Assembly (NCBI GenBank): GCA_965249725.1
Contig: CBDFMQ010000002.1
Span: 736,001 to 800,000 of the forward strand
DNA: 64,000 nucleotides
Direction: 5' to 3'
DNA from: Longimicrobiales bacterium
GTDB lineage: Bacteria; Gemmatimonadota; Gemmatimonadetes; Longimicrobiales; Gaopeijiaceae
Under the pieces are notes generated by a model. The model did not search any database. It was not told where the DNA came from and saw only the letters and a program-made list of their open reading frames with translations. Each line of letters opens with the position of its first letter. Position 1 is the stretch's first letter. The position numbers and the translations under genes are program-made. Positions 2,417 to 22,011 of this stretch are shown here, one piece after another.

Positions 2417-3289
2417 ATGACAGAGCAGCAGCCCCAGGATCAGCCGTCCAGGCACGGGTTGGTCGACAACCCCCGCGCCTCCCAGCGTCGTGCCATGGCG
2501 CTCGGATTCGGGCTGTCCATCATTCTCCATCTGTTCGTCATCATCCTGTATTCCTTGGGCCCCAGCGAGTGGGGTCCGACCGCGAACACTCTCGGGGTGG
2601 AGTCCGACTCTCGACCGTTCACGGGCATGCGTGTGGTGCAGGTGGTGGAGATCTCTCCGGAAGAAGAAGAGTCTAGCGAGGAAGAGCCGGACGCCGTCCT
2701 CGAGATCATCCCTGCGCGGGAGGTGCCCGTACAGGGACCGGAGCGGGCTGACGGGCCCTCGGATGAAGGCCCGGCCGAAGCAAGGGATGCCGGCGTCGGA
2801 GTAAGGGCCGCCGAGGTGATGAGAGTTCGGAGCTCCGACCACCGGCTGTGGCGCGCAGCCCTGCCCGAGCTCTTCGAGCTGACGGAGGCGGAGAGGCTTC
2901 AGCTGGAGCTGGCAGGGCTCCTGGAGGCCTGGCACGACTCCGTGGCGATAGCGCTCGCGTCCGAGTCGGCCCTTACCGACTGGACCATGACGGATGGCGA
3001 CGGAAACCGTTGGGGCATCTCGCAGGGCAAACTCCATCTCGGAAGCCTCACCCTGCCTCTTCCGGTGTACTTCGGCGGCAACTCGTGGCAACGGGAACGC
3101 GCTACCAGACGGGCCTGGGAGGATGCCGACATCCTCAACAATCTGAATTCACAAGCCGCGCGCGCGAGTTGGGGCGAGAGGGCCAAGGCCATCAGGGAAC
3201 GCAAGGAGAGGCAGCGCCGAGAGGCCGAGCAGCAGCCCGACTTGTTGCCCGACACTTCGCGCACCTCCGGGGGCCGACCTCCGCGTTAA
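2417..3289 (+). CDS. Hypothetical single-TM protein
   Basis: SIILHL TM anchor (TonB-like N-terminus), acidic linker, Trp-rich C-domain. Confidence 0.7.
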   Translation: MTEQQPQDQPSRHGLVDNPRASQRRAMALGFGLSIILHLFVIILYSLGPSEWGPTANTLGVESDSRPFTGMRVVQVVEISPEEEESSEEEPDAVLEIIPAREVPVQGPERADGPSDEGPAEARDAGVGVRAAEVMRVRSSDHRLWRAALPELFELTEAERLQLELAGLLEAWHDSVAIALASESALTDWTMTDGDGNRWGISQGKLHLGSLTLPLPVYFGGNSWQRERATRRAWEDADILNNLNSQAARASWGERAKAIRERKERQRREAEQQPDLLPDTSRTSGGRPPR

Positions 3290-10620: not shown

Positions 10621-11177
10621 TGAGCGACGAGGCACGTCCCGCGGTTTTCCTCGACCGAGACGGCACGCTCATCGAAGAGAGGGTCTACCTGGCGGATCCG
10701 GACGGCGTCGCGGTGTTGTCTCAAACCACAGAGGCACTCCGGGCGCTCCGCGAGGCAGGGTACGCCCTCGTGGTCGTGACCAACCAGTCAGGGATCGCAC
10801 GCGGGCTGTACGGTGAGGGTGAGTATCGGGCCGTCGCCGCCCGGCTCGACTCGCTCCTGGCCGAGGCCGGGGCCGCCGTGGACCTGACCCTACACTGTCC
10901 CCACCACCCCGATTTCGGGGAACCTTGCCCCTGCCGCAAGCCAGGCACCGGGATGCACCGGGACGCCGCGGTGGCACTGGGACTCAGCCTGGCGGATTCC
11001 TACTACGTGGGTGACAAGGTAGCCGACGTGCTGCCCGCTGGAGAGCTCGGAGGACAGGGCGTGCTCGTCCGTACCGGGTACGGAGACGATGAAGCGTCGC
11101 GGGTGCCGGAGGGCGTCGTCGTCGTAGACGACATATTTGCGGTAGCGCGGTTCATTCTCGGGACGGAGGGGCGTTGA
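10620..11177 (+). CDS. gmhB: D-glycero-D-manno-heptose 1,7-bisphosphate phosphatase (HAD-IIIA)
   Basis: FLDRDGT, TNQSGIARG, CPHHP..CPCRKP, VGDK; ATG overlaps selA stop. Confidence 0.9.
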   Translation: MSDEARPAVFLDRDGTLIEERVYLADPDGVAVLSQTTEALRALREAGYALVVVTNQSGIARGLYGEGEYRAVAARLDSLLAEAGAAVDLTLHCPHHPDFGEPCPCRKPGTGMHRDAAVALGLSLADSYYVGDKVADVLPAGELGGQGVLVRTGYGDDEASRVPEGVVVVDDIFAVARFILGTEGR

Positions 11178-11201
11178 CCCCCCCTTGGGCTCCCGGTAGC
11201 T
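11174..11201 (+). promoter_or_regulatory. Putative sigma70 promoter of erpA
   Basis: TTGACC-N16-TAGCTT. Confidence 0.45.
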
Positions 11202-11288
11202 TTTTGGCGTTTCAAGGAAGGCAATTCGCCGGCGATGAGAACGATCCGTGGGCGGTAGGGGTAAGAGATCCCCAGGAGAAGAAATCTT

Positions 11289-11633
11289 ATGGAAGGCATT
11301 GAAACACTGTTGAGCCTCACGCCGGATGCGGTGAGCAAGGTCCAGTCGTTCATTGAAGAGCAGGGAGCCTCGGGAGAGGCCGGTCTGCGCGTCGCGGTTC
11401 TTCCCGGCGGGTGCTCGGGTTTTCAGTACGGCCTGAACATCGAGGACGCCCCGGAGAGCGACGACGAGATCTTCGACCTTTCCGGTGTGAAGATCTTCGT
11501 GGATCCGTTCAGTGTTCAGTACCTGAGCGGTGTCGAGATCGACTATGTAACCAGCATGATGGGATCGGGCTTCACGTTCACGAACCCGAATGCCTCCGGT
11601 GGATGCGGCTGCGGAAGTTCATTCACCGCCTAG
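11289..11633 (+). CDS. erpA: A-type Fe-S carrier (ErpA/IscA/HesB family)
   Basis: GGCSGFQY, NPNA..GCGCGSSF. Confidence 0.9.
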   Translation: MEGIETLLSLTPDAVSKVQSFIEEQGASGEAGLRVAVLPGGCSGFQYGLNIEDAPESDDEIFDLSGVKIFVDPFSVQYLSGVEIDYVTSMMGSGFTFTNPNASGGCGCGSSFTA

Positions 11634-11660
11634 AGTTCCGAGCACGGATTCGGATGTACC

Positions 11661-11696
11661 GGCTCGTAGGTGAGATTCCTACGGGCCACTCTTTTT
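11661..11696 (+). terminator. Rho-independent terminator
   Basis: GGCTCGTAGG..CCTACGGGCC hairpin followed by a T run. Confidence 0.7.
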
Positions 11697-11715
11697 GGGG
11701 TCATGCCTGAATACG

Positions 11716-12366
11716 ATGCGCTTTCAAGCCTTCACAGCCGGGAACTTCGCCGAGAACGGGTACGTCGCGTGGTGTGAGACCACCGGCGAGTGCGTCGTCG
11801 TGGACCCCGGCGCCTGCGCCTCCCAGATGGTCGCCGCGATCGAGGCCGAGGGCAGTGACCTGGTCGCGGTCCTGTTGACGCACGCCCATCTCGATCACGT
11901 AGAGGGTCTGGGCGTCATTCGGGATTTCGCGGACGTACCTACGTACCTGCACCCCGCCGACCGACCCCTCTTCGACGGCGTGCCGGCTCAAGCGGCCATG
12001 TTCGGCCTCCAGGCGCCGGCGTTGGATCCGCCCGAGGAGGAGTTCCAGGACGGGGACACCTACCGCTTCGGTGCATCGGCTTTTCAGGTCATTCACACAC
12101 CCGGGCATTCGCCGGGCCACGTCATCCTCGTGGCCGCCGATGACGACCTGGCGATCGTCGGGGACCTCGTCTTTGCGGGCTCGGTCGGGAGAACCGATCT
12201 TCCGGGTGGTGACTACCACGCTCTCTTCAACAGCATTCGCCGGCACGTCCTGACCATGTCCGATGACACCCGACTCCTGACCGGCCATGGACCCCCGACC
12301 ACCGTTGGGCACGAGCGTGTGGGCAACCCCTTTCTGACCCCGCACTACGGAGGGGAGCTGGCGTGA
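11716..12366 (+). CDS. MBL-fold metallohydrolase (glyoxalase II/GloC-like)
   Basis: THAHLDH, TPGHSPG, GD, GRTDLPGG, GHG. Confidence 0.9.
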   Translation: MRFQAFTAGNFAENGYVAWCETTGECVVVDPGACASQMVAAIEAEGSDLVAVLLTHAHLDHVEGLGVIRDFADVPTYLHPADRPLFDGVPAQAAMFGLQAPALDPPEEEFQDGDTYRFGASAFQVIHTPGHSPGHVILVAADDDLAIVGDLVFAGSVGRTDLPGGDYHALFNSIRRHVLTMSDDTRLLTGHGPPTTVGHERVGNPFLTPHYGGELA

Positions 12367-13037
12367 CGCTTCCTGTTCCCGTGGCCGTGTTTGCGTCGGG
12401 CGGGGGAACGAATCTCCAGGCACTTCTGGATCACGAGGCGGGGAACGAGGCTTACCGGGTCGTGGCAGTCATCGCGGATCGCCCGGATGCCGGGGCGCTC
12501 GATCGGGCCAGGGAAGCCGGCCGGGACGCATCGGTGATCAACCCGAAGGATCGCTCCCAGGAAGAGATCGGGGACGAGATTCTCCGTCACCTCCGGGATC
12601 GCGACGTGCGGGTCATCGCACTGGCCGGGTATCTCAGACTGATCCCGGCGGCCGTTGTGGCGGCCTATCCCAGACGCATCCTCAACATCCATCCCGCGCT
12701 GCTTCCGGCGTTCGGTGGGAAGGGCATGTACGGGGCGCGGGTCCATCAGGCGGTTGTGGCCGAGGGGGCCAAGGTGACCGGAGCGACCGTCCATTATGTC
12801 GATGAGAAGTACGACACCGGAGCCATGGTAGCCCAGTGGCCCGTCCCGGTGCTCCCGGAAGACGATGCCGATGCCGTCGCCGCACGCGTGCTCGAGGTCG
12901 AGCATCTTCTGTATCCCGCCGTGCTCGAACACGTGTGTCGAGCCGTAGCGGAGGGCAGGGATCCCGAGCCGTTCGCCCTGGCCTCCATCGATTCCCATAT
13001 GCATGTCAGGACTGACAACGCAAGAGCAAGCGAATAG
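12363..13037 (+). CDS. purN: Phosphoribosylglycinamide formyltransferase
   Basis: SGGGTNLQA, LNIHPALLP, GATVHYV..YDTG. Confidence 0.96.
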   Translation: MTLPVPVAVFASGGGTNLQALLDHEAGNEAYRVVAVIADRPDAGALDRAREAGRDASVINPKDRSQEEIGDEILRHLRDRDVRVIALAGYLRLIPAAVVAAYPRRILNIHPALLPAFGGKGMYGARVHQAVVAEGAKVTGATVHYVDEKYDTGAMVAQWPVPVLPEDDADAVAARVLEVEHLLYPAVLEHVCRAVAEGRDPEPFALASIDSHMHVRTDNARASE

Positions 13038-13054
13038 AGGAGAGCGAGCTAGAC

Positions 13055-14764
13055 ATGAAGCGACGAGCGCTGCTTAGCGTGTCCGATAAATCCGGTATCG
13101 AATCTCTGGCCAGATCACTGGTCGATGCCGGGTGGGAGATCCTGTCGACCGGCGGCACCGCCGGTGCGGTGCGGGACGCCGGTCTGCCCGTGACCGAGGT
13201 AGCTGAGGTGACCGGTCATCCGGAGATGATGGAGGGGCGCGTGAAGACGCTGCATCCCGCCGTTCACGCTGGCCTGCTGGCCCGTCGCGATCGGCCGGAT
13301 GACATGGCCGCCCTCGAGGAACAGGGATACGCACCCATCGACTTGGTGGCCGTGAACCTCTACCCGTTCCGGGAGACCGTGGCTCATGGTGACGTGCCGG
13401 TGGGCGAAGCCATGTCCAAGGTGGACATCGGCGGACCCACCATGATCCGCGCGGCCGCCAAGAGCCATGCAGACGTGCTCGTGATGGTGGATCCCTCGGA
13501 CTACGACCGGGTGCTGAATGCTCTGGCGGAGGGCGACGCCGTGGACGGTGCCCTACGTCGAGAGCTCGCCGCCAAGGTCTTCCGGCACATCAGTGAGTAT
13601 GACGCCACCGTGGCGACCTACCTGGAGGCGGGATCCGACGGAGCCGACGCCGGGACGGATGCCCGAGCGGAGGCCGGGCTGGAGGCCAAGGAGTCCGACG
13701 CCGGCCTACCCGATGCTCTGTCCCTGGATTTCGAGCTGGTGCAAGGCCTGCGGTACGGTGAGAACCCCGGCCAGGATGCCGCCTTCTACCGGAAGCTTGG
13801 TGGGCAGGATGGCCTGGCTGGGCTCGAGCAACTCCACGGCAAGGATCTCTCCTACAACAACCTGCTGGATCTCGACGGCGCACTACTGTCTCTGGCTCCC
13901 TTCGCGTACTCTCCGCGGCCCGCCGTATGCATCGTCAAGCACACGACGCCGTGTGGGCTGGCCGTAGCGGGAACCGTGGTCGAGGCGTACGAACGTGCCC
14001 TGCGAACGGACGGCGTCAGCGCCTTCGGGTCGGTCATCGCGGTAAACCGGCGAATCGACACGGAAACGGCCCAAGCCATGTCAGGGTTGTTCATCGAATG
14101 CGTCGTGGCGCCGGCCTACGACGACGAGGCCATCGAAGTGCTGACGCAGAAGAAGAACGTACGGTTGCTGGTCTGCGGCGGAATCGGCGAGACGATCGAG
14201 GGCGAACCACCCGAGGACTGGTGGGGCAGGGCGCCCGAAGAGGTACGTCGAACCGGTCGCTTCCTAGCGGAGCACGGACGCCGACCTGAAGCTCTCGCCC
14301 TACGAAGCGTATACGGTGGAATGCTGACGCAGACACCACCACCACCACCGTTCTACGGGCTGAGCAACGTGGATTGGTCCGTCGCCACCGACAGGAGTCC
14401 GGACGAGGCCGAATGGGACGATCTCCGGTTCGCCTGGGCCGCCGTGTTCGGCGTGAAGTCCAACGCGATCTTGTTTGCCAGCGGAGGAGCCACGTTGGGG
14501 ATCGGCGCCGGTCAGATGAGCCGAGTGGATTCCTCGCGCATAGCCGTCCAGAAGGCGGCGGATGCCGGCCTGGACCTGACCGGTGCCGTGCTGGCATCCG
14601 ACGCGTTCTTCCCGTTCCGGGACGGTGTGGACGCTGCTGCGGAAGCCGGCGTGCGGGCCATCGTGCAGCCCGGGGGATCGATGCGGGACGATGAGGTCAT
14701 CGAGGCCGCGAACGAACACGGTATGGCGATGGTGTTTACCGGGCAGCGGCTCTTCCGACATTAA
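13055..14764 (+). CDS. purH: Bifunctional AICAR transformylase/IMP cyclohydrolase
   Basis: [41 protein letters not shown]. Confidence 0.97.
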
Positions 14765-14845
14765 TCAAGCCCTCGGTCGGATCACGCGCAGCCTCTTTAC
14801 ACGACGCGTGTGAATCCCTGAGGTTCTTCAAGCCAGAAGCTACCT

Positions 14846-14929
14846 GGAGGGGTGGCAGAGCGGTTCAATGCACCAGTCTTGAAAACTGGCGGGCGCAAGC
14901 CTACGCGGGTTCGAATCCCGCCCCCTCCG
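14846..14929 (+). tRNA. tRNA-Ser (TGA), CCA not encoded
   Basis: GGAGGGG/CCCCTCC acceptor, CCAGT-CTTGAAA-ACTGG anticodon arm, long variable arm, GGTTCGAATCC, G discriminator. Confidence 0.97.
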
Positions 14930-15267
14930 CTACATAGATTTGTTCGCATTCGAACCCGCGCGCTCTTCAAAGAAGAGCGCCAGCGGGCTCGAGCCGAGCG
15001 GTCAGCCAAGCAGACCGCGCATGCGGCCCTGCCGGTCTCCCGTGAGACGACGTCGAGAAGCGACGTCAATCCCGTCGCCTCCGCTACATAGATTTGTTCG
15101 CATTCGAGCCCGCGACACTCAACTCATCTGGCCTCCGATGAACCCGGGGCGGTTCAAAGAGCGCCAGCGGGCTCGAGTCGAGCGGTCAGCCAAGCAGACC
15201 GCGCATGCGACCCTGCCGGTCTCCCGCGAGACGACGTCGCAAAGCGACGTCAATCCCGTCCCCTCCG
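14914..15267 (+). repeat. Two tandem structured repeats (154 and 184 bp), each ending in a copy of the tRNA-Ser 3' end (RtT-like)
   Basis: AATCCCG(C/T)C(C/G)CCTCCG at 14914, 15068 and 15252; intervening units are near-identical and multi-hairpin. Confidence 0.9.
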
Positions 15268-15487
15268 GCTCAGAGTACCGTCCGAACGCAGTCAAACTAA
15301 GTTGAACAGCGCAGTTTAAGACAATATTGGAGCGGCAGGATTACGGATCGGGGAATCTCAGACGTGAAGATTGTCGGGGTATCTGTTGCGTCCGAGGTGG
15401 GATCGTGCCGATGATGGGGCGGTTGGTGAAGTACAACTTGACGAGCAACGTTCACCAAGGGCTGCGGACCGGACCCAGGTGGAGAGG

Positions 15488-15987
15488 TCAGCCCCCGTCT
15501 CCGAGCAGCTCTCGCGCTTCATCTTCGGAAAGCCCCACCTCGGCCACGTCCTCACTGGTCTCGAGCAATTCTCGGTCCTCTGCCCTTCTGGCTAGGGCCA
15601 GCGAACCAGCAGCAGAGCCCGCGCCGGCCACCGCGAAGATGGGGCCCAGGCCCACCAGGTTCCATAAGAAAGCGGGGTCCTCTGCAAGGGCCACGGCCAA
15701 GACGCGGACAGCAGGAACCCCCCAGCGGCCCCCCACCCCGCAAAGCGTGGAAGGGACATCTGATCGAACCGGCGACGACCCTCAACAAGACCCAGGACCC
15801 CTGAGAAGGTGACGCCGGCAACAAAGCCGAAGGCACCAAACAAGAGGGGATAGGGGACGTCGGCGCCGGTACTACCAGTTACCAGCAGAAGCCCCAGCAG
15901 CATGATCATGCCCGCGCCGAACCATGCTGCTGCCCAGGTCAGGCCCGTCCCGATGGCGCCGCGGACGCGTCTCAGCCACTTCTTCAT
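15488..15987 (-). pseudogene. Membrane protein gene with a frameshift near 15705
   Basis: MKKWLRRVRGAIGTGLTWA...GFLLSA in one frame continues as VLAVALA...ALARRAEDRELL in another. Confidence 0.7.
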
Positions 15988-16164
15988 TACCACCCCCCTC
16001 TGTACTTGGACCTGCTGCAAGCGATGCCGCCGCCGATTCAGCTACAAGTACTTTACGTTACAAAGTAGGCGCCAGGGAAGCGGGGGCCAAGAGGGCGGAC
16101 CGACCAGGTCCGACGATGCCCTAGGTGCCCAGGACGAGAAGGCACCTCTACCGCTGCGGCGTGA

Positions 16165-16833
16165 ACAGCGCACGCACAGCACGGGCGAGGCGGCGAGCGG
16201 TAGCGACCCGAGCGACCTGCCACCCGAGTCGCTGCCTGATCAGTTCGTAGGACTGCGATAGCCAGCTGTCGGGCGCGTACGTGACGTGGCTCACGACGGT
16301 CCGGACGAAGGTGCCCCTCAGCCAACGGTTCGCTCCGGCGGGGATCGATCCGTGACGAATGGGCCGGAGACCCGACTGTGAGGAGCGTGGAGCGAGACCG
16401 GCGTAGCTGACCAGGTGGCCCGGCGTGCGAAATCGCTTGATAGGCAATGTCTCGGTGGCGATGAGCAGTGCCCGGTAGGGACCGATGCCCGGGACGGTCT
16501 CGAGCAATGCTACGGCCGGGATCTCTCGGCCCACGTGCTCGACCCTACGATCGAGGGTTTTGATCATCGGTACGATTTGGTCGATGAGAGCTCCAGGGGC
16601 TGATACTGCTGGAGCAGATCATCGAGTCGATCCTCTTGCGTGTTCTTGATCCGGATGGGTCCGGCCACCAGCTGACCCGTATTGCTCACGATGGCGATCA
16701 CCGAATACGTTGCGTGAGCATCGATTCCTGCGACAAACATGGCTGGCCTCCTTGGGTTGAGTGCCGCAGGCCTTTGAGCAAAGTTCAGCGTAACGCTCCG
16801 CTCGAGTGAGGTCAGCCCTTCGCCTTATAAGAT
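16165..16833 (-). mobile_element. Deleted IS110/IS1111-family remnant (left end intact, transposase internally deleted, right end lost)
   Basis: Homologous to 18450-19914: same CCTTCGCCTTATA IR (16817-16829), MFVAGIDAHATYS start at 16740, jump from QPLE to LIDQIVP, truncated after ARAVRAL. Confidence 0.93.
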
Positions 16834-16854
16834 CAGAATCGCAATCCGTTAGGC
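16834..16854 (+). other. attC right arm (L'-R'), left behind after IS insertion
   Basis: CAGAATCGCAATCC-GTTAGGC (GTTRRRY core) immediately before a cassette ORF. Confidence 0.75.
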
Positions 16855-16886
16855 TGCACAAAACGTTCAAGCGCATCGGAGACAAG

Positions 16887-17411
16887 ATGAGGCCAAGGGG
16901 AAGAGTCCCATGCATGACCGCCCTCTTGGGTGGAGTTATCGTGCTGCTAGGTGCTTGCCAAGTCGCACCCCCAGAAAGTACGACGGACCCGCATGTGGAG
17001 GGTGGGACGGATGTGGAGCGGGGTCGATACGTGACCATCATCGGCGGCTGTAACGACCGTCATACGGATGGTTATCTCCAAGCGGAGGGGAATATCCCAG
17101 AGGATCAGTGGCTCCTCGGGTCACCCCTGGGGTGGCGCGGTCCTTGGGGCACTACCTATCCACCGAACCTCCGACTCTCGGTGCAGGGAATGGACGAGAA
17201 TCAGTGGGTCGGAATGCTCCACACACGAACCGCTCTGCCACCGATGCCCTGGATGAACACAAGCCAAATGGCCGAGCCGGACGCACGTGCTCTTTTCCGG
17301 TACATCGTTTCACTCGGGCCTGGAGGAGAGGCGATGCCTCCTGCTCTTCCCCCCGATGTCGAGCCGACGACACCGTATCTATCGTTGCTGCCCATCGTCC
17401 CAGGGAACTGA
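16887..17411 (+). CDS. Cytochrome c-like lipoprotein cassette (haem motif mutated to CNDRH)
   Basis: Lipobox LGAC, VERGRY, GGCNDRHT, GPWGTTYPPNL, PPMPW. Confidence 0.8.
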   Translation: MRPRGRVPCMTALLGGVIVLLGACQVAPPESTTDPHVEGGTDVERGRYVTIIGGCNDRHTDGYLQAEGNIPEDQWLLGSPLGWRGPWGTTYPPNLRLSVQGMDENQWVGMLHTRTALPPMPWMNTSQMAEPDARALFRYIVSLGPGGEAMPPALPPDVEPTTPYLSLLPIVPGN

Positions 17412-17413
17412 TA

Positions 17414-17433
17414 AGAATCGCAATCCGTTAGGC
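17414..17433 (+). other. attC right arm only (left arm deleted)
   Basis: AGAATCGCAATCCGTTAGGC, identical to 16835-16854, 2 nt after the stop codon. Confidence 0.75.
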
Positions 17434-17482
17434 ACCGTTATCGTACGCGTGCTGCTCTGGAATCCTCACAAAAGGACCCAAT

Positions 17483-17839
17483 ATGTCATCTGCCGTATCC
17501 TGGAACCTTCGGGTGTCGATCAACGAGGGTCGCTTAGAAGACTTTCGCGCTCTGATGCAAGAAATGGTCGCCTCCACCGAGGGTGAGGCTGGGGCCTTGG
17601 GCTACGAGTGGTTCCTTAGCGAGGACGGAGCTTCCTGTCACATCAACGAGCGCTACACCGATTCAGACGCCGTGATGGCGCATCTGGGCAATTTCGGCGC
17701 GAACTTCGCCGAGCGCTTTCTTGGATGCGTCGCACCGACTTCAATCGATGTCTACGGTGACCCGTCAGATGAGGTCCGAGAGGCTCTCGCCGGCTTCGGC
17801 GCAGTGCATCACGGCCCGTTTGGAGGATTTAGTCGGTAG
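17483..17839 (+). CDS. ABM/putative quinol monooxygenase family cassette
   Basis: EAGALGYEWF, ERYTDSDAVMAHL. Confidence 0.85.
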   Translation: MSSAVSWNLRVSINEGRLEDFRALMQEMVASTEGEAGALGYEWFLSEDGASCHINERYTDSDAVMAHLGNFGANFAERFLGCVAPTSIDVYGDPSDEVREALAGFGAVHHGPFGGFSR

Positions 17840-17861
17840 GGTCCGCTTGTCGGGCGTAGGT

Positions 17862-17926
17862 GCTTAACAAGCGATTGCTGCAGTCGCGGTAGGCATCCTA
17901 ACCGCCGCCGCTTCGCGTCCCGCGAC
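17862..17926 (+). other. attC left arm (R''-L''), right arm missing
   Basis: GCTTAAC (RYYTAAC) AAGCGATTGCTGCAGTCGCGG, complementary to the right-arm copies. Confidence 0.7.
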
Positions 17927-17933
17927 CGGGTGG

Positions 17934-18284
17934 CTACTTCCCCGGTCGGGACCCGGCTGCCAGTTCGTACGACTCCTCTAGCCAGTTCTCCCAGACGGCT
18001 TCGGAGAGCGGCTCCTCCGCTGTGAAACGAGTCGTAACCCATCCCGTGGATCCGACTTCAAAGCGGTCCGGATGTGTGGTCGCGAGTTCCCTCGCCTTTG
18101 GCATGGATTGATCGAGCTTGAACATGGCCTTGAAGCCGCGGCCCTTGACGCCCGGTCCGATGTAGAGGAAGGCGCGCTTGCCGACCTTGAAAGCGCTCTG
18201 GTTGCAGGAGGTTCCCGGGGCGACAGCTGGAAACGCGGCAGCCTTGGTCCGAATCGTGTCGGTGGGATCAGAGTCTACAGACAT
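17934..18284 (-). CDS. MmcQ/YjbR-like protein (reverse-oriented cassette gene)
   Basis: AFKVGKRAFLY, GWVT, WLEESYEL. Confidence 0.75.
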   Translation of the reverse strand: MSVDSDPTDTIRTKAAAFPAVAPGTSCNQSAFKVGKRAFLYIGPGVKGRGFKAMFKLDQSMPKARELATTHPDRFEVGSTGWVTTRFTAEEPLSEAVWENWLEESYELAAGSRPGK

Positions 18285-18469
18285 GGATACGTTGCCTCCG
18301 AGTTGGGATAGGTCACGATTCCCGGGTAGGCGAGACGGGGCCTCTCTCACCGAGGGTACGCGCGGCGGGGTCCCCATAACAAGGAACTGCTGCTGTCGCG
18401 GTAGTCATCTGGCTCGCGCTCTCCGCCTGCGGTCACCATCTTTGCCGCGATCATCTATAAGGCGAAGGA

Positions 18470-18785
18470 AGTCAATAGGGCGTAGCCCTCCCTTACCCGT
18501 CCGGGGTCCCGGAGGGGTGGCTCGGTCCACTGGGCTGTAGCTCAAGGCCTGCGTGATCATCTTCTAGTTTTCAAGTTCAGTACCGACGTCGCGTCCGATC
18601 TTGGGCGAGTCTCCTCTCACGAGGGCTCAGGCATCTATTCAGGTTTCGTCCCAGACGTGGGGACGTCCGAAGATCTGCTATGCGAGTGGGGGGCTCAGTC
18701 AGCAGAAGCGGGTCGTCTACTTCGAGCGACATGCGCGGCTTGGAGCTCACCCCCGTCGTGGTACGGTGCATCATGGTGTGTGATC
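18470..18785 (-). ncRNA. Putative bridge/seek RNA of the IS1111 element (exact ends unknown)
   Basis: Non-coding 3' end with stem-flanked segments matching the target and the circle junction. Confidence 0.75.
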
Positions 18786-19823
18786 TCAGTTTAGTTGTGT
18801 CACAGGCTCATCGTGCCAGACCTCACCGGTACGCAGCATCGCGTGCACGGCGCGAGCGAGACGACGAGCGGTGGCGACCCGGGCGACTTGCCAGCCGAGA
18901 CGCCCTTTGATCTGTTCGTAGGACCGCGATAGCCAGCTGTCGGGCGCGTGCGTGACGTGGCTCACGACGGCCCGAACGAAGGTGCCCCTCAGCCAGCGGT
19001 TCGCACCGGCGGGGATCGATCCGTGGCGAATGGGCCGGAGCCCTGACTGTGAAGAGCGTGGAGCGAGACCGGCGTAGCTGACCAGGTGGCCCGGAGTCCG
19101 GAATCGTGTGATGGGCAGTGTCTCTGTCGCGATGAGCAATGCCCGGTAGGGACCGATGCCGGGCACCGTCTCGAGCAGCGCCACGGCCGGGATCTTTTGG
19201 CCCATGTGCCCGACCCTGCGATCGAGCGTTCGGATCATCGGTACGATCTGGTCAATGAGGGCCCACTGCATGTCGATGAACAGACGCCGCTCGGCTCCGA
19301 GCAGGGGCCACGCCACGTCGCGCACCCACTGGCGTCCGTTCTGGGTGAGCAAGCGCCCACGCTCCAGATGAAGCCCGACGTTGTGGATCTGGGCGTGGAT
19401 GCGGTTCACCATCCGGGTACGTTCCCTCACGAGTCTTGCCCGGTTGCGCAGAAGCACCGCTTGCTCCCGCTGCTCGATGCACTTCGGATGGACCTCGGGG
19501 ATGAGGCCTGCCAGCCGCATACGCGCCAACAACTCGGCGTCGATGTCGTCACTCTTGTAGTTGGACTCGGCGATGACGCGGAGCCGCTTGGCGTGGGCGA
19601 GCACGAAGCGGATTCCATTGCCCTGGAGTTGATCGAAGAGCCACGGCCAGGCCGGACTCGTCTCGACGACCACCTCGAGGGGGCGATACTGCTCGAACAG
19701 TTCATCGAGTCGATCCGCTTCCTTGTTATTGATGCGAGCGGGTCCGTGCACGAGCTGACCTTTGTTGCTTACGATAGCGATCACTGAATACGTTGCGTGA
19801 GCATCAATCCCTGCGACAAACAT
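18786..19823 (-). CDS. IS110-family DEDD recombinase/transposase
   Basis: GID, VVET, KSDDIDA (DEDD), VPGIG, YAGLAPRSSQSG (catalytic Ser), ARRLAR. Confidence 0.97.
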   Translation of the reverse strand: MFVAGIDAHATYSVIAIVSNKGQLVHGPARINNKEADRLDELFEQYRPLEVVVETSPAWPWLFDQLQGNGIRFVLAHAKRLRVIAESNYKSDDIDAELLARMRLAGLIPEVHPKCIEQREQAVLLRNRARLVRERTRMVNRIHAQIHNVGLHLERGRLLTQNGRQWVRDVAWPLLGAERRLFIDMQWALIDQIVPMIRTLDRRVGHMGQKIPAVALLETVPGIGPYRALLIATETLPITRFRTPGHLVSYAGLAPRSSQSGLRPIRHGSIPAGANRWLRGTFVRAVVSHVTHAPDSWLSRSYEQIKGRLGWQVARVATARRLARAVHAMLRTGEVWHDEPVTQLN

Positions 19824-20004
19824 GGCTGGCCTCCTTGGGTTGGGTGCCGCAGGCCTTTGAGCAAGTTCAGCGTAACGCCCCGCTCGAGTGAGGTCAGCCT
19901 TCGCCTTATAAGATCAGCAGCATCGCAGTCCGTTAGGCGGAACTGAAGCCACCTGCGGATCATCGATGATGAGTGTCCTCTTCTCTAAGATCGGTTGAGT
20001 TTCG

Positions 20005-20337
20005 ATGCATGTAGTTAAGGCGAGCGAGCTGCCCTTCAAGGGCGTCTCGCGACAATTCGTTGGGGAGGAGAACGGGGATGTCGGAATCTCCATCTACCTC
20101 GTAGACGCACCAAAGGACGCCGGCCCCGGGCTTCACACACATCCCTATGATGAGGTCATCCTCGTACGCCGAGGAGCGGCTCTCTACACTGTGGATGGTG
20201 TCGAGTATGAGGCCGAAGCCGGTGACATCATTGTTGTGAAGGCTGGCGAGGTGCATGGTTTCCGCAGCATCGGGGACGAGCCGCTGGTCCAAGTCGATAT
20301 CCACTTAGGGTCTCGCTTCGGGCAGCACGATCTCTAG
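20005..20337 (+). CDS. Cupin domain protein (cassette after attC)
   Basis: GPGLHTHPYDE, GDIIVVKAGEVHGF. Confidence 0.9.
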   Translation: MHVVKASELPFKGVSRQFVGEENGDVGISIYLVDAPKDAGPGLHTHPYDEVILVRRGAALYTVDGVEYEAEAGDIIVVKAGEVHGFRSIGDEPLVQVDIHLGSRFGQHDL

Positions 20338-20404
20338 CGGGAGCTGCTCGCTGAAGTTCTATTCCCTGACAGGCTCTCTTGCAGCGGTGTGAAGAGGAAG
20401 AACG

Positions 20405-21367
20405 ATGATATCTCGACGTGATTGGCTTCGAATCAGCGCCGGCGCCGGCGCGGCGCTTGGTCTGAATCCGCGGATGCTGGAGGCGCTTCAGACAGGAGCG
20501 GTCCTGACCCGCGCGATCCCGTCTACCGGTGAGCAGCTTCCTGTGATCGGGCTGGGCGGCCGATGGATTTCGATGAACTCGAGTGCAGAGGAGCTCGCCG
20601 GCCACCGCGCGGTGCTTCACGCCCTGGCGGAAGGCGCCGAGGGCGTGGGGCGGGTCTTCGATAGCGCAGCTGGCTACGGTGGAGGCGGCTCGGAAACCTA
20701 TGCGGGTCAGTGGGCCCAAGAGGACGGATTCGCCGACGACATCTTCTGGGCCACGAAGGTGAATGTAGCCGGTCGAGGGGGCGGCTCGGCCGACCCTGGG
20801 AGCGTCCGGGCGCAGATCGAGCGGTCGTTTGAACGTCTCGGTGTTCCGGTGATCGATCTGAACCAGGTTCACAACATGGGCGATCCGCCCACCCAGCTGG
20901 GGATTCTTCAGGAATACAAGGAATCCGGTCGGATCCGCCACATCGGAATCACCACCACCAGCGAGACACAATACGGAGCGCTCGCCGGGGTCATGCGCGA
21001 GTACCCCATCGACTTCATCGGCATCGATTACGCCATCGACAACCGGGTGGCTGAAGATCAGATTTTCCCGTTGGCGCAGGACGAGGGGATCGCCGTCATG
21101 GTGTATCTGCCGTTCGGGCGCAGTCGGATGTGGAGTCGGATCGGTGACAGGCCACTCCCCGAGTGGGCGGCGGAGTTCGACGCGCACAGCTGGGCGCAGT
21201 TCATGCTGAAGTTCGTGGTCGCGCAACCCGCGGTCACCGTCGCGGTGCCCGGGACCGGTGACCCACAGCACATGGTGGACAATCTCGGTGGAGGCCGGGG
21301 ACGCCTACCCACGCCGGACCACCTCAAGCGAATGCTCGAACTCGTAGAGAGTCTTCCGGGCGCCTAG
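20405..21367 (+). CDS. Aldo/keto reductase with Tat signal
   Basis: SRRDWL; IGLG, FDSA..Y, ATK, QVHN. Confidence 0.9.
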   Translation: MISRRDWLRISAGAGAALGLNPRMLEALQTGAVLTRAIPSTGEQLPVIGLGGRWISMNSSAEELAGHRAVLHALAEGAEGVGRVFDSAAGYGGGGSETYAGQWAQEDGFADDIFWATKVNVAGRGGGSADPGSVRAQIERSFERLGVPVIDLNQVHNMGDPPTQLGILQEYKESGRIRHIGITTTSETQYGALAGVMREYPIDFIGIDYAIDNRVAEDQIFPLAQDEGIAVMVYLPFGRSRMWSRIGDRPLPEWAAEFDAHSWAQFMLKFVVAQPAVTVAVPGTGDPQHMVDNLGGGRGRLPTPDHLKRMLELVESLPGA

Positions 21368-21866: not shown

Positions 21867-21915
21867 GCTCGCGCGCTTCACTTTCAGTCCACATCTTGAT
21901 CGCGTAGCAGAGCCG
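21867..21915 (+). other. Eroded attC copy (no R boxes)
   Basis: Aligns without gaps (about 70% by hand count) to the reconstituted attC centre GCTCGCGC...CATCTT..CGCG.AGCAGA. Confidence 0.6.
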
Positions 21916-22011
21916 AGTCGCCGAACTGATTTGGGAGATCGGTTTGCTCTACGCCGAGACCACCGGACGCAGTGAGGTGAATCGCATGTCCGTAATGCGG
22001 GGTGGACCAAT

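What the first reader, a model, noticed from the sequence alone, without database searches (positions are those of the whole stretch)
18374..19938. RNA-guided IS1111 recombinase whose guide can be read as targeting integron attC sites
Seen: on the transposase strand the 3' non-coding RNA contains GCCGCGCA (18739-18732) and TTCTGCTG (18707-18700) on either side of an inner hairpin (GTCG..CGAC), closed by an outer stem. The first equals the left target flank plus CA. The second is the reverse complement of CAGCAGAA. Together they spell a 14-nt target, GCCGCG-CA-GCAGAA. This fits the right junction (CAGCAGCA), the attC right-arm copies (..AGAATCGC) and the relic at 21901 (CGCGTAGCAGA). The left junction carries two extra bases (GCCGCG-AT-CA). 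The DEDD and Ser residues are intact. Known: IS110 bridge RNAs and IS1111 seekRNAs use paired guides overlapping at a 2-nt core, and IS1111-attC elements are described in Proteobacteria. Inference: a candidate new programmable recombinase with a CA core, from a different lineage.
Basis: partly seen in the sequence, partly recalled or inferred. Interest (0 to 1): 0.88.

Follow-up and report, generated by a model that had tools for sequence, protein, structure and literature searches.

The report
RNA-guided insertion sequence in integron attC
This is a 1.5-kb jumping gene of the IS1111 type, sitting in an integron recombination site of a Gemmatimonadota genome, that chooses its landing site with a small guide RNA; the mechanism is already known from other bacteria, so it is a new lineage of a known kind.

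Summary
GCCGCGCA (18739-18732) and TTCTGCTG (18707-18700) lie on the transposase strand, either side of a GUCG/CGAC hairpin and inside an outer stem. The element is a 1465-bp IS1111-type insertion sequence, window 18450-19914, minus strand. Contigs from three other metagenome studies join 18449 directly to 19915, which gives the empty site GCCGCG^CAGCAG in a true integron attC site. The genome has 37 attC-like sites and an IntI above its cut-off.

The guide reading is strongly supported. Across 13 target classes in Gemmatimonadota relatives, both guide segments change with the flanks: 76 of 104 and 64 of 96 positions match, and 0 of 100,000 shuffles reach either value. Sister elements at 81-91% protein identity carry other guides and sit 3 nt away in the same attC arm. 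A metagenome contig with the window's guides has clean TG/TG junctions at the predicted site.

seekRNA-guided attC targeting has already been shown for ISKpn4 and ISPst6 (PMC11187229), so this is a new, distant lineage (34% identity or less to plasmid homologues), not a new mechanism. Both resident copies have irregular junctions, which I could not explain.

The parts
18450..19914 (-). Whole inserted element, 1465 bp (IS1111-type insertion sequence).
   Evidence: Contigs of runs X4, X5 and X6 (three studies) join 18449 to 19915 with no ambiguity and no other letters in the flanks. A second copy at 99% identity lies at C3:2273724-2275225.
18786..19823 (-). Transposase gene, 345 aa, DEDD/RuvC-like N-terminal domain plus IS116/IS110/IS902 C-terminal domain.
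   Evidence: ORF. Pfam PF01548 4.2e-15 and PF02371 3.5e-16. NCBIfam NF033542 196 bits against a cut-off of 140. Motifs GID7AH, VVVE54T, KSD92DID95A and GLAPRSSQS260G261 are conserved in the homologues aligned; two rows were uninformative because of frame offset at the start.
19898..19910 (-). Left subterminal inverted repeat TATAAGGCGAAGG. It is preceded on the transposase strand by ATCT (19914-19911) and the target-side TG (19916-19915).
   Evidence: Read directly. It is a perfect 13-bp reverse complement of 18456-18468.
18456..18468 (-). Right subterminal inverted repeat CCTTCGCCTTATA. It is followed by GA (18455-54), core TG (18453-52) and the irregular extra AT (18451-50).
   Evidence: Read directly and from the junction comparison.
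18732..18741 (-). Guide 1 (5' arm of loop 1), AAGCCGCGCA. It is the reverse complement of core plus right target, TG-CGCGGCTT, so it pairs with the top strand of the right flank.
   Evidence: The same position in 23 aligned homologues varies with the right flank. Contig L058, which has the same guide, has the right flank TGCGCGGCTAAT.
18700..18709 (-). Guide 2 (3' arm of loop 1), GCTTCTGCTG. It is identical to left target plus core, so it pairs with the bottom strand of the left flank.
   Evidence: It varies with the left flank. Left flanks of contigs with the same guide are GATTCTGCTG, GATTCTACTG and GATTCTGCTG.
18688..18753 (-). RNA module 1 (target-binding loop): outer stem of 4+4 bp with a 3-nt bulge, inner hairpin GUCG/CGAC, and both guides unpaired.
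   Evidence: RNAalifold on 23 sequences gives 12 pairs. 98.9% of cells are paired, against 41-53% when the partners are slid. One pair is compensatory, U-A to C-G in 3 sequences.
18626..18686 (-). RNA module 2 (putative donor-binding loop): outer stem CUC-GCAU/AUGC-GAG, internal loop with arms AGCAGAUCUUC and AAACCUGAAUAG, and an inner hairpin. ATAGATG (18638-18632) is identical to the right end plus core.
   Evidence: RNAalifold on 19 sequences gives 14 pairs, 8 of them with compensatory changes. The 3' arm follows variants of the right end (AGATG, AGGTG, GGC-G, AGC-G), but weakly: 52 of 81 positions against a shuffled mean of 47.1, and 889 of 100,000 shuffles reach it.
18375..18449 (+). attC site, larger part (R''-L'' arm and central region), ending at the insertion point GCCGCG.
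   Evidence: nhmmer hit with E 1.4e-16, one of 37 attC-like hits in the genome. Aligned with uninterrupted copies.
19915..19940 (+). attC site, remainder (CA core, L' arm GCAGCATCGCAG, R' core GTTAGGC).
   Evidence: Read directly. It is contiguous with 18449 in the empty-site contigs.

Best explanation
Window 18450-19914 (minus strand) is an IS1111-family insertion sequence of a clade found in Gemmatimonadota.

Shown by computation:
- Its boundaries, from empty-site contigs.
- A DEDD plus Ser-Gly type transposase.
- 13-bp subterminal inverted repeats.
- A 331-nt non-coding region 3' of the gene.
- In that region, a conserved two-loop RNA scaffold whose first internal loop carries two roughly 10-nt segments that vary in step with the DNA flanking each element.

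Inferred from the published IS1111 seekRNA and IS110 bridge RNA mechanism:
- The region is transcribed and the RNA binds the transposase.
- The 5' guide (AAGCCGCGCA) pairs with the top strand of core plus right target (TG-CGCGGCTT).
- The 3' guide (GCTTCTGCTG) pairs with the bottom strand of left target plus core (..TTCTGC-TG).
- A circular copy of the IS is then recombined at the TG core (CA on the window's + strand) without target duplication.
- The second loop probably holds the IS ends. Its 3' arm equals the right end plus core.

The specified 14-nt site lies at the inner edge of one arm of the host's integron attC sites, so the element is a parasite of gene-cassette arrays.

The window copy differs from its closest relatives by a concerted change of both guides. 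This moves the insertion point 3 nt, from GATTC-TG-CTGCGCG to TTCTGC-TG-CGCGGC.
For: **Element and mobility**
- The empty site is seen in contigs of 3 runs from 3 studies: 18449 joined to 19915, skipping 1465 bases.
- There are two copies at 99% identity in the genome, and the ORF is intact.

**Family**
- Pfam PF01548 and PF02371 both match.
- NCBIfam NF033542 scores 196 bits against a cut-off of 140.
- The GL-P----SG motif and the D/E/D/D motif positions are conserved.
- The subterminal repeats are a perfect 13 bp, and the long non-coding region is downstream of the gene.

**Target is an attC site**
- The genome has 37 attC-like hits in arrays.
- They carry RYYYAAC...GTTRRRY cores and complementary arms.
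- An IntI scores 335 bits against a cut-off of 265, next to an array of the same attC family.
- Of 18 genomic sites within 1 mismatch of the 14-mer target, 16 lie in attC hits.

**Guides covary with flanks**
- The reverse complement of guide 1 matches the right flank at 5 or more of 8 non-core positions in 25 of 29 junctions.
- Guide 2 matches the left flank likewise in 26 of 30 junctions.
- With one representative per target class, guide 1 gives 76 of 104 matches against a shuffled mean of 36.0. Guide 2 gives 64 of 96 against 35.2. No shuffle of 100,000 reaches either value.
- Single-base examples: L015 guide GCGTGCAGCA with flank CTGCAC, and L016 guide CACATTCTG with flank TCATTCTG. L030 guide 1 matches its flank at 10 of 10 positions.

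**Independent insertions with the window's own guides**
- L058, whose IS is 91.6% identical, reads GCGATTCTGC TG|IS|TG CGCGGCTAAT.

**RNA structure**

**Order of the guides**
- The top-strand complement lies 5' of the bottom-strand complement. PMC11187229 states this as the IS1111 order (sections 4 and 9).
Against: There is no direct evidence of the RNA or of activity.
- The only RNA data are metatranscriptome contigs of relatives, 92-99% alike, covering 18477-18987. These may derive from DNA and show no ends.
- No promoter-like or terminator-like site was found.
- The single-sequence fold is no better than shuffles (z -0.64) and differs from the consensus.
- The module 1 stems are nearly invariant, so only 1 of 12 pairs is compensatory.

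Both resident copies depart from the simple model.
- Copy 1 has two extra bases (TG-AT-CGCGGC) at the right junction. As read, its guide 1 matches that flank at only 2 of 8 positions, or 6 of 8 if AT is skipped.
- Copy 2 has GCG in place of TG on the left and a shorter right flank, with 3 of 8 matches on each side.

L037 is a true exception: its guide 1 matches at 0 of 8 positions.

The 5' arm of loop 2 does not follow variants of the left end.
Confidence: 0.85

Rival explanations
1. The family is RNA-guided, but the two copies resident in this genome are trapped. Changes directly at a junction core (extra AT in copy 1; GCG for TG and a shortened right flank in copy 2) prevent the guide RNA from recognising the flanks. 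The copies therefore can no longer excise. They persist for that reason, while clean insertions come and go.
For: - The junction irregularities are seen.
- The empty site for copy 1 shows that AT belongs to the inserted DNA.
- Relatives and L058, which has the same guides, have clean TG/TG junctions.
- In ISEc11, replacing the target bases that flank the donor on either side abolished circle formation (PMC11187229, section 7 passage).
- Sixteen near-perfect attC targets in the genome are unoccupied.
Against: - Most relatives in other genomes have clean junctions and still persist, so irregular junctions are not needed for persistence.
- The empty and filled forms of the copy 1 site coexist in nature. 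This could equally mean recent insertion or excision.
- The pre-insertion sequence of copy 2 is not known exactly. The uninterrupted orthologous site in the same-genus genome G002 has diverged.
Confidence: 0.4
2. Target choice is made by the protein, which recognises the folded attC hairpin or a DNA motif. The matches between the non-coding region and the target are fragments of attC picked up by recombination, with no guiding role.
For: - attC sites are structured, and other elements recognise them by shape.
- The stems of module 1 show little covariation.
Against: - The matching segments change with the flanks in 13 target classes. These include targets that do not look like attC sites by eye: L022, L025, L026, L031/32 and L035.
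- The two segments match opposite strands and overlap at the core. They sit in a fixed register in a conserved scaffold, which captured attC fragments would not explain.
- Both 8-mers in the right order and spacing occurred in 2 of 200,000 shuffles.
Confidence: 0.04
3. The element is an inactive fossil, and the family-wide pattern only reflects past activity of ancestors.
For: - Only two full copies and one decayed relative are present.
- Both full copies have irregular junctions.
- No promoter-like site was found.
Against: - The 345-aa ORF is intact with conserved catalytic motifs.
- The two copies are 99% identical.
- The copy 1 site is polymorphic, filled or empty, across samples.
Confidence: 0.1

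Closest known systems
IS1111-family elements with seekRNA that target attC sites: ISKpn4, ISPst6, and ISPa25 (predicted) (Siddiquee et al. 2024, PMC11187229)
   Same: - DEDD transposase with the GL-P----SG motif.
- Subterminal inverted repeats.
- A long non-coding region 3' of the gene that encodes the RNA.
[quoted passage not shown]
- Insertion into one end of integron attC sites in one orientation, without duplication.
   Different: - The host is Gemmatimonadota, not Proteobacteria.
- No plasmid-borne homologue exceeds 34% identity.
- The attC family is different.
- The clade shows many natural retargetings, including a 3-nt register shift within one attC arm.
- I could not compare the insertion position within attC: the target logos are pictures, and Tetu & Holmes 2008 is not held.
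- The ISKpn4 and ISPa25 proteins printed in supplement file 6 share only the catalytic motifs with this protein by eye. No identity was computed.
IS110 bridge RNA systems (IS621; Durrant et al. 2024, PMC11208160)
   Same: - Two internal loops in one RNA.
- Each loop has a pair of guides for opposite strands on either side of a 2-nt core.
- Recombination of a circular donor with the target.
   Different: - The RNA lies 3' of the gene, not 5'.
- The order of the guides is reversed.
- The subterminal repeats are long (13 bp).
- The core is TG (CA on the window's + strand).
- Donor-loop pairing is only partly supported here: the 3' arm follows the right end, the 5' arm does not follow the left end.
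ISHvo10-like elements of haloarchaea (the best plasmid hits)
   Same: Best protein matches, at 30-32% identity over 96-98% of the length. The passages of PMC11187229 that I read describe ISHvo10 as a diverged IS with long non-coding regions on both sides.
   Different: This element has a short 5' non-coding region (91 nt) and a long 3' one (331 nt). The identity is too low to place the two together.

Membership tests
IS110/IS1111 superfamily (DEDD transposases) | N-terminal DEDD (RuvC-like) domain and C-terminal IS116/IS110/IS902 domain | tested here: met
   PF01548 at 4.2e-15 over residues 4-146, and PF02371 at 3.5e-16 over residues 215-296. NF033542 scores 196 bits against a cut-off of 140.
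IS110/IS1111 superfamily (DEDD transposases) | Catalytic D, E, D, D and the Ser of the G--P----SG motif are present | tested here: met
   D7, E54, D92, D95 and GLAPRSSQS260G261 are conserved in the aligned homologues. The catalytic roles are assigned by motif, following the text of PMC11187229 section 6, not by a structural alignment. The only PDB match is the ISCro4 transposase (9t56) C-terminal domain, E 0.0047.
IS1111 family (as against IS110 proper) | Subterminal inverted repeats of about 11-13 bp | tested here: met
   TATAAGGCGAAGG (19910-19898) and CCTTCGCCTTATA (18468-18456) are a perfect 13-bp pair.
IS1111 family (as against IS110 proper) | The longer non-coding region lies downstream of tnp | tested here: met
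   331 nt downstream (18455-18785) against 91 nt upstream (19824-19914).
IS1111 family (as against IS110 proper) | Asymmetric terminal extensions beyond the repeats (7 bp left, 3 bp right) and no target duplication | tested here: inconclusive
   If the repeat is taken as 12 bp and the TG is assigned to the left end, relatives and L058 give TGATCTT (7) and AGA (3). This matches the rule quoted in the introduction of PMC11187229. The window copy has two further bases (AT) at the right end.
IS1111 family (as against IS110 proper) | The RNA segment complementary to the top strand lies 5' of the segment complementary to the bottom strand | tested here: met
   Guide 1 is the reverse complement of the right flank. 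Guide 2 is identical to the left flank.
IS1111 family (as against IS110 proper) | The RNA co-purifies with the transposase and is essential; a circular intermediate forms | not testable with these tools
   Only contigs were available. They cannot show RNA ends or circles.
IS1111-attC group (Tetu & Holmes 2008; Post & Hall 2009) | Insertion at a fixed position and orientation in attC sites of gene cassettes | tested here: met
   The window copy, the relic at 16166-16854, L058, and by eye most close relatives lie in attC-like sites with the same orientation relative to the CTAAC core.
IS1111-attC group (Tetu & Holmes 2008; Post & Hall 2009) | The transposase belongs to the clade of ISPst6, ISKpn4, ISPa21 and ISPa25 | not tested
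   No stored sequence of these was available. Indirectly, the best identity to any of 72,556 plasmid records is 34%, whereas members of that group are 46-86% identical to each other (PMC11187229 section 9). It is probably not a member of that clade.
Integron attC site (the target) | RYYYAAC...GTTRRRY cores with imperfectly complementary arms, in arrays spaced like cassettes, in a genome with an integron integrase | tested here: met
   The consensus is (G/T)CTAAC-AAGCGATTGCTGC...GCAGCAGAATCGC-AATCC-GTTAGGC. There are 37 hits, spaced 0.6-2.4 kb apart within arrays. TIGR02249 scores 335 bits against a cut-off of 265 at C3:1028977-1029906, beside the array at 1022193-1027330.
Rfam RNA families | A match to a curated covariance model | tested here: not met
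   No family matched 17500-20500 at E of 1 or less, apart from a chance sub-threshold snoRNA hit outside the element.

The most novel reading that the evidence does not exclude
attC targeting arose independently in a Gemmatimonadota clade of IS1111-like elements. In this clade one conserved two-loop RNA scaffold has been naturally reprogrammed at least a dozen times. The retargetings follow different attC families of different hosts at the same structural position, and in sister lineages they shift register by 3 nt within one arm. The core-adjacent scars of the two resident copies (+AT; GCG for TG) would then record either aberrant strand exchange or a way in which copies become fixed.
Probability: 0.45. 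Interest if true: 0.5.

Novelty: new member of a known kind. Interest (0 to 1): 0.4.

Why it matters
It extends RNA-guided IS1111 elements that parasitise integrons from clinical and environmental Proteobacteria to the chromosomal integrons of Gemmatimonadota.

It also offers a natural series of guide-target pairs on one compact scaffold: 13 classes, including a 3-nt retargeting between elements about 90% identical. That is ready material for testing the rules of guide design in IS1111-type recombinases.

For integron biology, it shows that cassette arrays outside Proteobacteria are also interrupted by elements aimed at attC.

It does not reveal a new mechanism.

Tried and rejected
- **Rfam**: no family matched.
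- **Single-sequence fold of the non-coding region**: not better than shuffles, and the minimum-energy structure differs from the consensus. I rely on the alignment folds instead.
- **Promoter and terminator scan**: nothing found. The consensus may not suit this phylum.
- **Empty site for copy 1 in 40 relatives' genomes**: not found in those searched. It was then found in metagenome contigs.
- **RNA run X15**: contigs of relatives cover the non-coding region and the gene. They cannot show transcription ends, and the library may hold DNA, so this does not count as evidence of expression.
- **Explaining the extra AT**: I tried a 4-nt core, a mismatched donor/target core resolved by replication, and a shifted crossover. 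None reproduces both junctions together with the empty site.
- **Explaining copy 2 from the same-genus uninterrupted site**: the flanks have diverged too far.
- **Finding ISKpn4 among plasmid hits**: the Klebsiella hit I inspected is not in an integron.
- **Tetu & Holmes 2008**: not held.
- **Supplementary Fig. 7 of PMC11187229**: the targets are pictures.
- **Earlier notes of this scan**: none for this place.
- **Not used**: complex prediction, structure prediction and the large protein searches. The family assignment was already clear.
Full report
**What is there**

On the minus strand, window 18786-19823 encodes a 345-aa protein. It carries Pfam PF01548 (DEDD transposase, 4.2e-15) and PF02371 (3.5e-16). 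It also matches NCBIfam NF033542, 'IS110 family RNA-guided transposase', at 196 bits against a cut-off of 140.

The gene is bracketed by a perfect 13-bp subterminal inverted repeat, TATAAGGCGAAGG at 19910-19898 and CCTTCGCCTTATA at 18468-18456. There are 91 nt of non-coding DNA upstream and 331 nt downstream.

The motif positions D7, E54, D92, D95 and S260-G261 (in GLAPRSSQSG) are conserved in the homologues aligned. The only solved relative by sequence is the C-terminal domain of the ISCro4 transposase (9t56, E 0.0047).

**Boundaries and mobility**

The genome holds a second copy at 99% identity (C3:2273724-2275225) and a decayed 87% relative at window 16166-16854.

I laid the contigs of four public runs on the region. 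Contigs from three runs of three different studies (X4, X5, X6) carry both flanks without other letters. They join 18449 directly to 19915, skipping 1465 bases, with no ambiguity in the joint. The element is therefore 18450-19914. The empty site reads ...TTTGCCGCG^CAGCAGCATCGCAGTCCGTTAGG on the + strand. Filled and empty forms of this site both exist in nature.

**The target is an integron attC site**

The 75 bases left of the element belong to a repeat of about 105 nt. A profile built from nine copies finds 37 places in the genome, grouped in arrays with spacings of 0.6-2.4 kb. The repeat has the attC plan: (G/T)CTAAC, then AAGCGATTGCTGC, a central part, then GCAGCAGAATCGC, AATCC and GTTAGGC.

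An integron integrase scores 335 bits on TIGR02249 (cut-off 265) at C3:1028977-1029906, beside an array of the same repeat.

In the genome, the 14-mer GCCGCGCAGCAGAA has no exact copy. It has 18 sites with at most one mismatch, and 16 of these lie in the attC hits.

Both 8-mers occurred in the right order and spacing in 2 of 200,000 shuffles of the non-coding region.

**Do the guides covary with the targets?**

A scan of one genome per species returned 35 related loci. 34 are titled as Gemmatimonadota lineages and one as a deltaproteobacterial MAG.

All loci with the region present share a scaffold: GGGG(U)GAGCUC(C), a segment of about 10 nt ending in CA, UGUCGC..GACGACC, a segment of about 10 nt ending in UG, then ACUGAGCCCCCC. 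The two variable segments track the flanks:

- The reverse complement of the first matches the right flank at 5 or more of 8 non-core positions in 25 of 29 junctions.
- The second matches the left flank likewise in 26 of 30 junctions.
- I took one representative for each of 13 target classes. The window itself was left out of this set; its class is represented by L030.
- For those representatives, guide 1 gives 76 of 104 matches against a shuffled mean of 36.0.
- Guide 2 gives 64 of 96 (12 classes) against 35.2.
- In 100,000 shuffles, none reached either value.

The misses are L037 (0 of 8 for guide 1), L039 (4 of 8), and both copies in the window's genome (see below). On the left side, L023, L025 and L036 reach 4 of 8.

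**Retargeting**

The relatives at 81-91% protein identity (L011-L018, L021, L022, L034, L038) carry GCGCGCAGCA and CAGATTCTG. Their junctions are GATTC-TG|IS|TG-CTGCGCGG, 3 nt to the left of the window's site in the same attC arm.

The window element (89.5% nucleotide identity to L011) has both guides changed in concert. Three of its six most divergent 10-nt windows against L011 fall in the guide module. Contigs of relatives in the metagenomes stop matching the window exactly at the two guides (loose ends at 18702 and 18742).

Elements at only 65% protein identity (L029, L030, L042) use the window's position. L030's guide 1 matches its flank at 10 of 10 positions.

The relic at 16166-16854 has the relatives' junction (GCGATTC TG ATCTTATAAGG), so both guide types have visited this cassette array.

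**Independent insertions with the window's own guides**

The exact 23-mer around guide 1 occurs in four metagenome contigs. L058 holds a whole IS, 91.6% identical to the window's. It has clean junctions, GCGATTCTGC TG|IS|TG CGCGGCTAAT. L056 and L057 give two more left junctions of the same kind.

**RNA structure**

RNAalifold on 23 sequences puts both guides in an internal loop, closed by a 4+4-bp outer stem and a 4-bp inner hairpin. 98.9% of cells pair, against 41-53% when partners are slid. The stems are nearly invariant, however, and only one pair shows a compensatory change (U-A to C-G in 3 sequences).

A second module (18686-18626) folds into another internal loop. It has 14 pairs, 8 of them with compensatory changes. 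Its 3' side (ATAGATG) equals the right end of the IS plus the core, and it follows right-end variants weakly: 52 of 81 against a shuffled mean of 47.1, with 889 of 100,000 shuffles reaching it. One extraction in that call (L035) was wrong. Its 5' side (CAGAUCU) is complementary to only 5 of 7 bases of the core plus left end, and it does not follow left-end variants.

The single-sequence fold is not significant. Rfam has no family for the region.

**What remains odd**

The standard form, seen in relatives and in L058, is LT-TG-IS-TG-RT.

- The window copy reads ...GCTGC-TG-IS-TG-AT-CGCGGC. The empty site shows that the extra AT came in with the element, or arose afterwards.
- Copy 2 reads ...CTCTGC-GCG-IS-TG-CGC-TAAG. 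The same-genus genome G002 has the uninterrupted orthologous site, but it has diverged too far to give the exact pre-insertion sequence.

I found no exchange scheme that explains either. One possibility is that such scars immobilise copies, because circle formation of ISEc11 needed intact flanks on both sides (PMC11187229, section 7 passage).

**Comparison with what is known**

The features match the IS1111 family as described in PMC11187229 (abstract; sections 4, 6, 7, 8, 9 and 13 read or searched):

- subterminal repeats of 11-13 bp;
- a downstream non-coding region;
- the GL-P----SG motif;
- no target duplication;
- a seekRNA with the top-strand complement first.

That paper shows seekRNAs for the attC-targeting ISKpn4 and ISPst6 and predicts one for ISPa25. 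PMC11208160 (passages read) predicts bridge RNAs in 93.0% of IS1111 elements, in the right end. So both the mechanism and the attC habit are in print.

What differs is the lineage. It is from Gemmatimonadota, and no hit among 72,556 plasmid records exceeds 34% identity. There were 493 records at E 1e-5 and 969 at 1e-3, all under 60% identity. The breadth of natural retargeting is also notable.

I did not compute identity to ISKpn4 or ISPa25, and I could not compare the position within attC. Membership of the proteobacterial IS1111-attC clade is therefore untested, and I judge it unlikely.

**Verdict**

It is a new member of a known kind, of moderate interest.

Noticed in passing
window 16166-16854 (minus strand); twin at G000:C3:4956-5644: A decayed relative of the IS, 87% identical, with an internal deletion in the transposase gene. 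Its 3' part, including the guide RNA region, is missing. Its left junction is of the relatives' type (GCGATTC TG ATCTTATAAGG), in another attC site of the same array.
   Followed up: partly
window 11065-17855 and G000:C3:1-8215: About 6.8 kb of the window is repeated at the very start of contig C3 at 99.4-100% identity. There is an extra ~1.5 kb in the contig-start copy and a ~100-bp difference near 14960-15068. This is either a real segmental duplication or an assembly overlap.
   Followed up: no
window ~21907-21985; also C3:2595283, 2596570, 2601819, 970544 and the site of IS copy 2: At least six attC-like sites carry the same ~70-nt insert (GCCGAGGCGCCGTACTGATTTCG...CAGTGAGGTG) in the L' arm, between GCAGA and ATCGC, a few bases from the IS target. 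It may be a miniature element that also homes to attC.
   Followed up: no
G000:C3:1022193-1029906: An integron integrase (382-aa open frame) lies on the same strand label as the adjacent four attC hits. The other 33 attC-like hits form clusters without an integrase elsewhere in the genome, including the window.
   Followed up: no
L022 (OZ250165.1), locus positions ~2849-3110: The IS there has two right ends 248 bp apart. The first is followed by a repeat of the RNA region starting at ACTGAGCC, so the 3' part is partly duplicated in tandem. Its target (GGTTC TG CTGCAC) does not look like an attC site.
   Followed up: no
L037 (JADFIT010000007.1): In this 51%-identical relative, guide 1 does not match the right flank (0 of 8). 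Its reverse complement resembles the tandem TTCCGTG motif of the left flank. Loop 2 contains GGTGGCCATT, identical to the right junction.
   Followed up: no
L026, L031, L032: The dinucleotide at the right junction is CG (L026) or AG (L031, L032) while the left one is TG. Guide 1 ends in CG in these elements. So the core is not always the same on both sides.
   Followed up: no
window 19962-19998 (+): A sub-threshold Rfam hit to the archaeal C/D-box snoRNA sR55 (20.8 bits, gathering score 35) just outside the element. I take it as chance.
   Followed up: no
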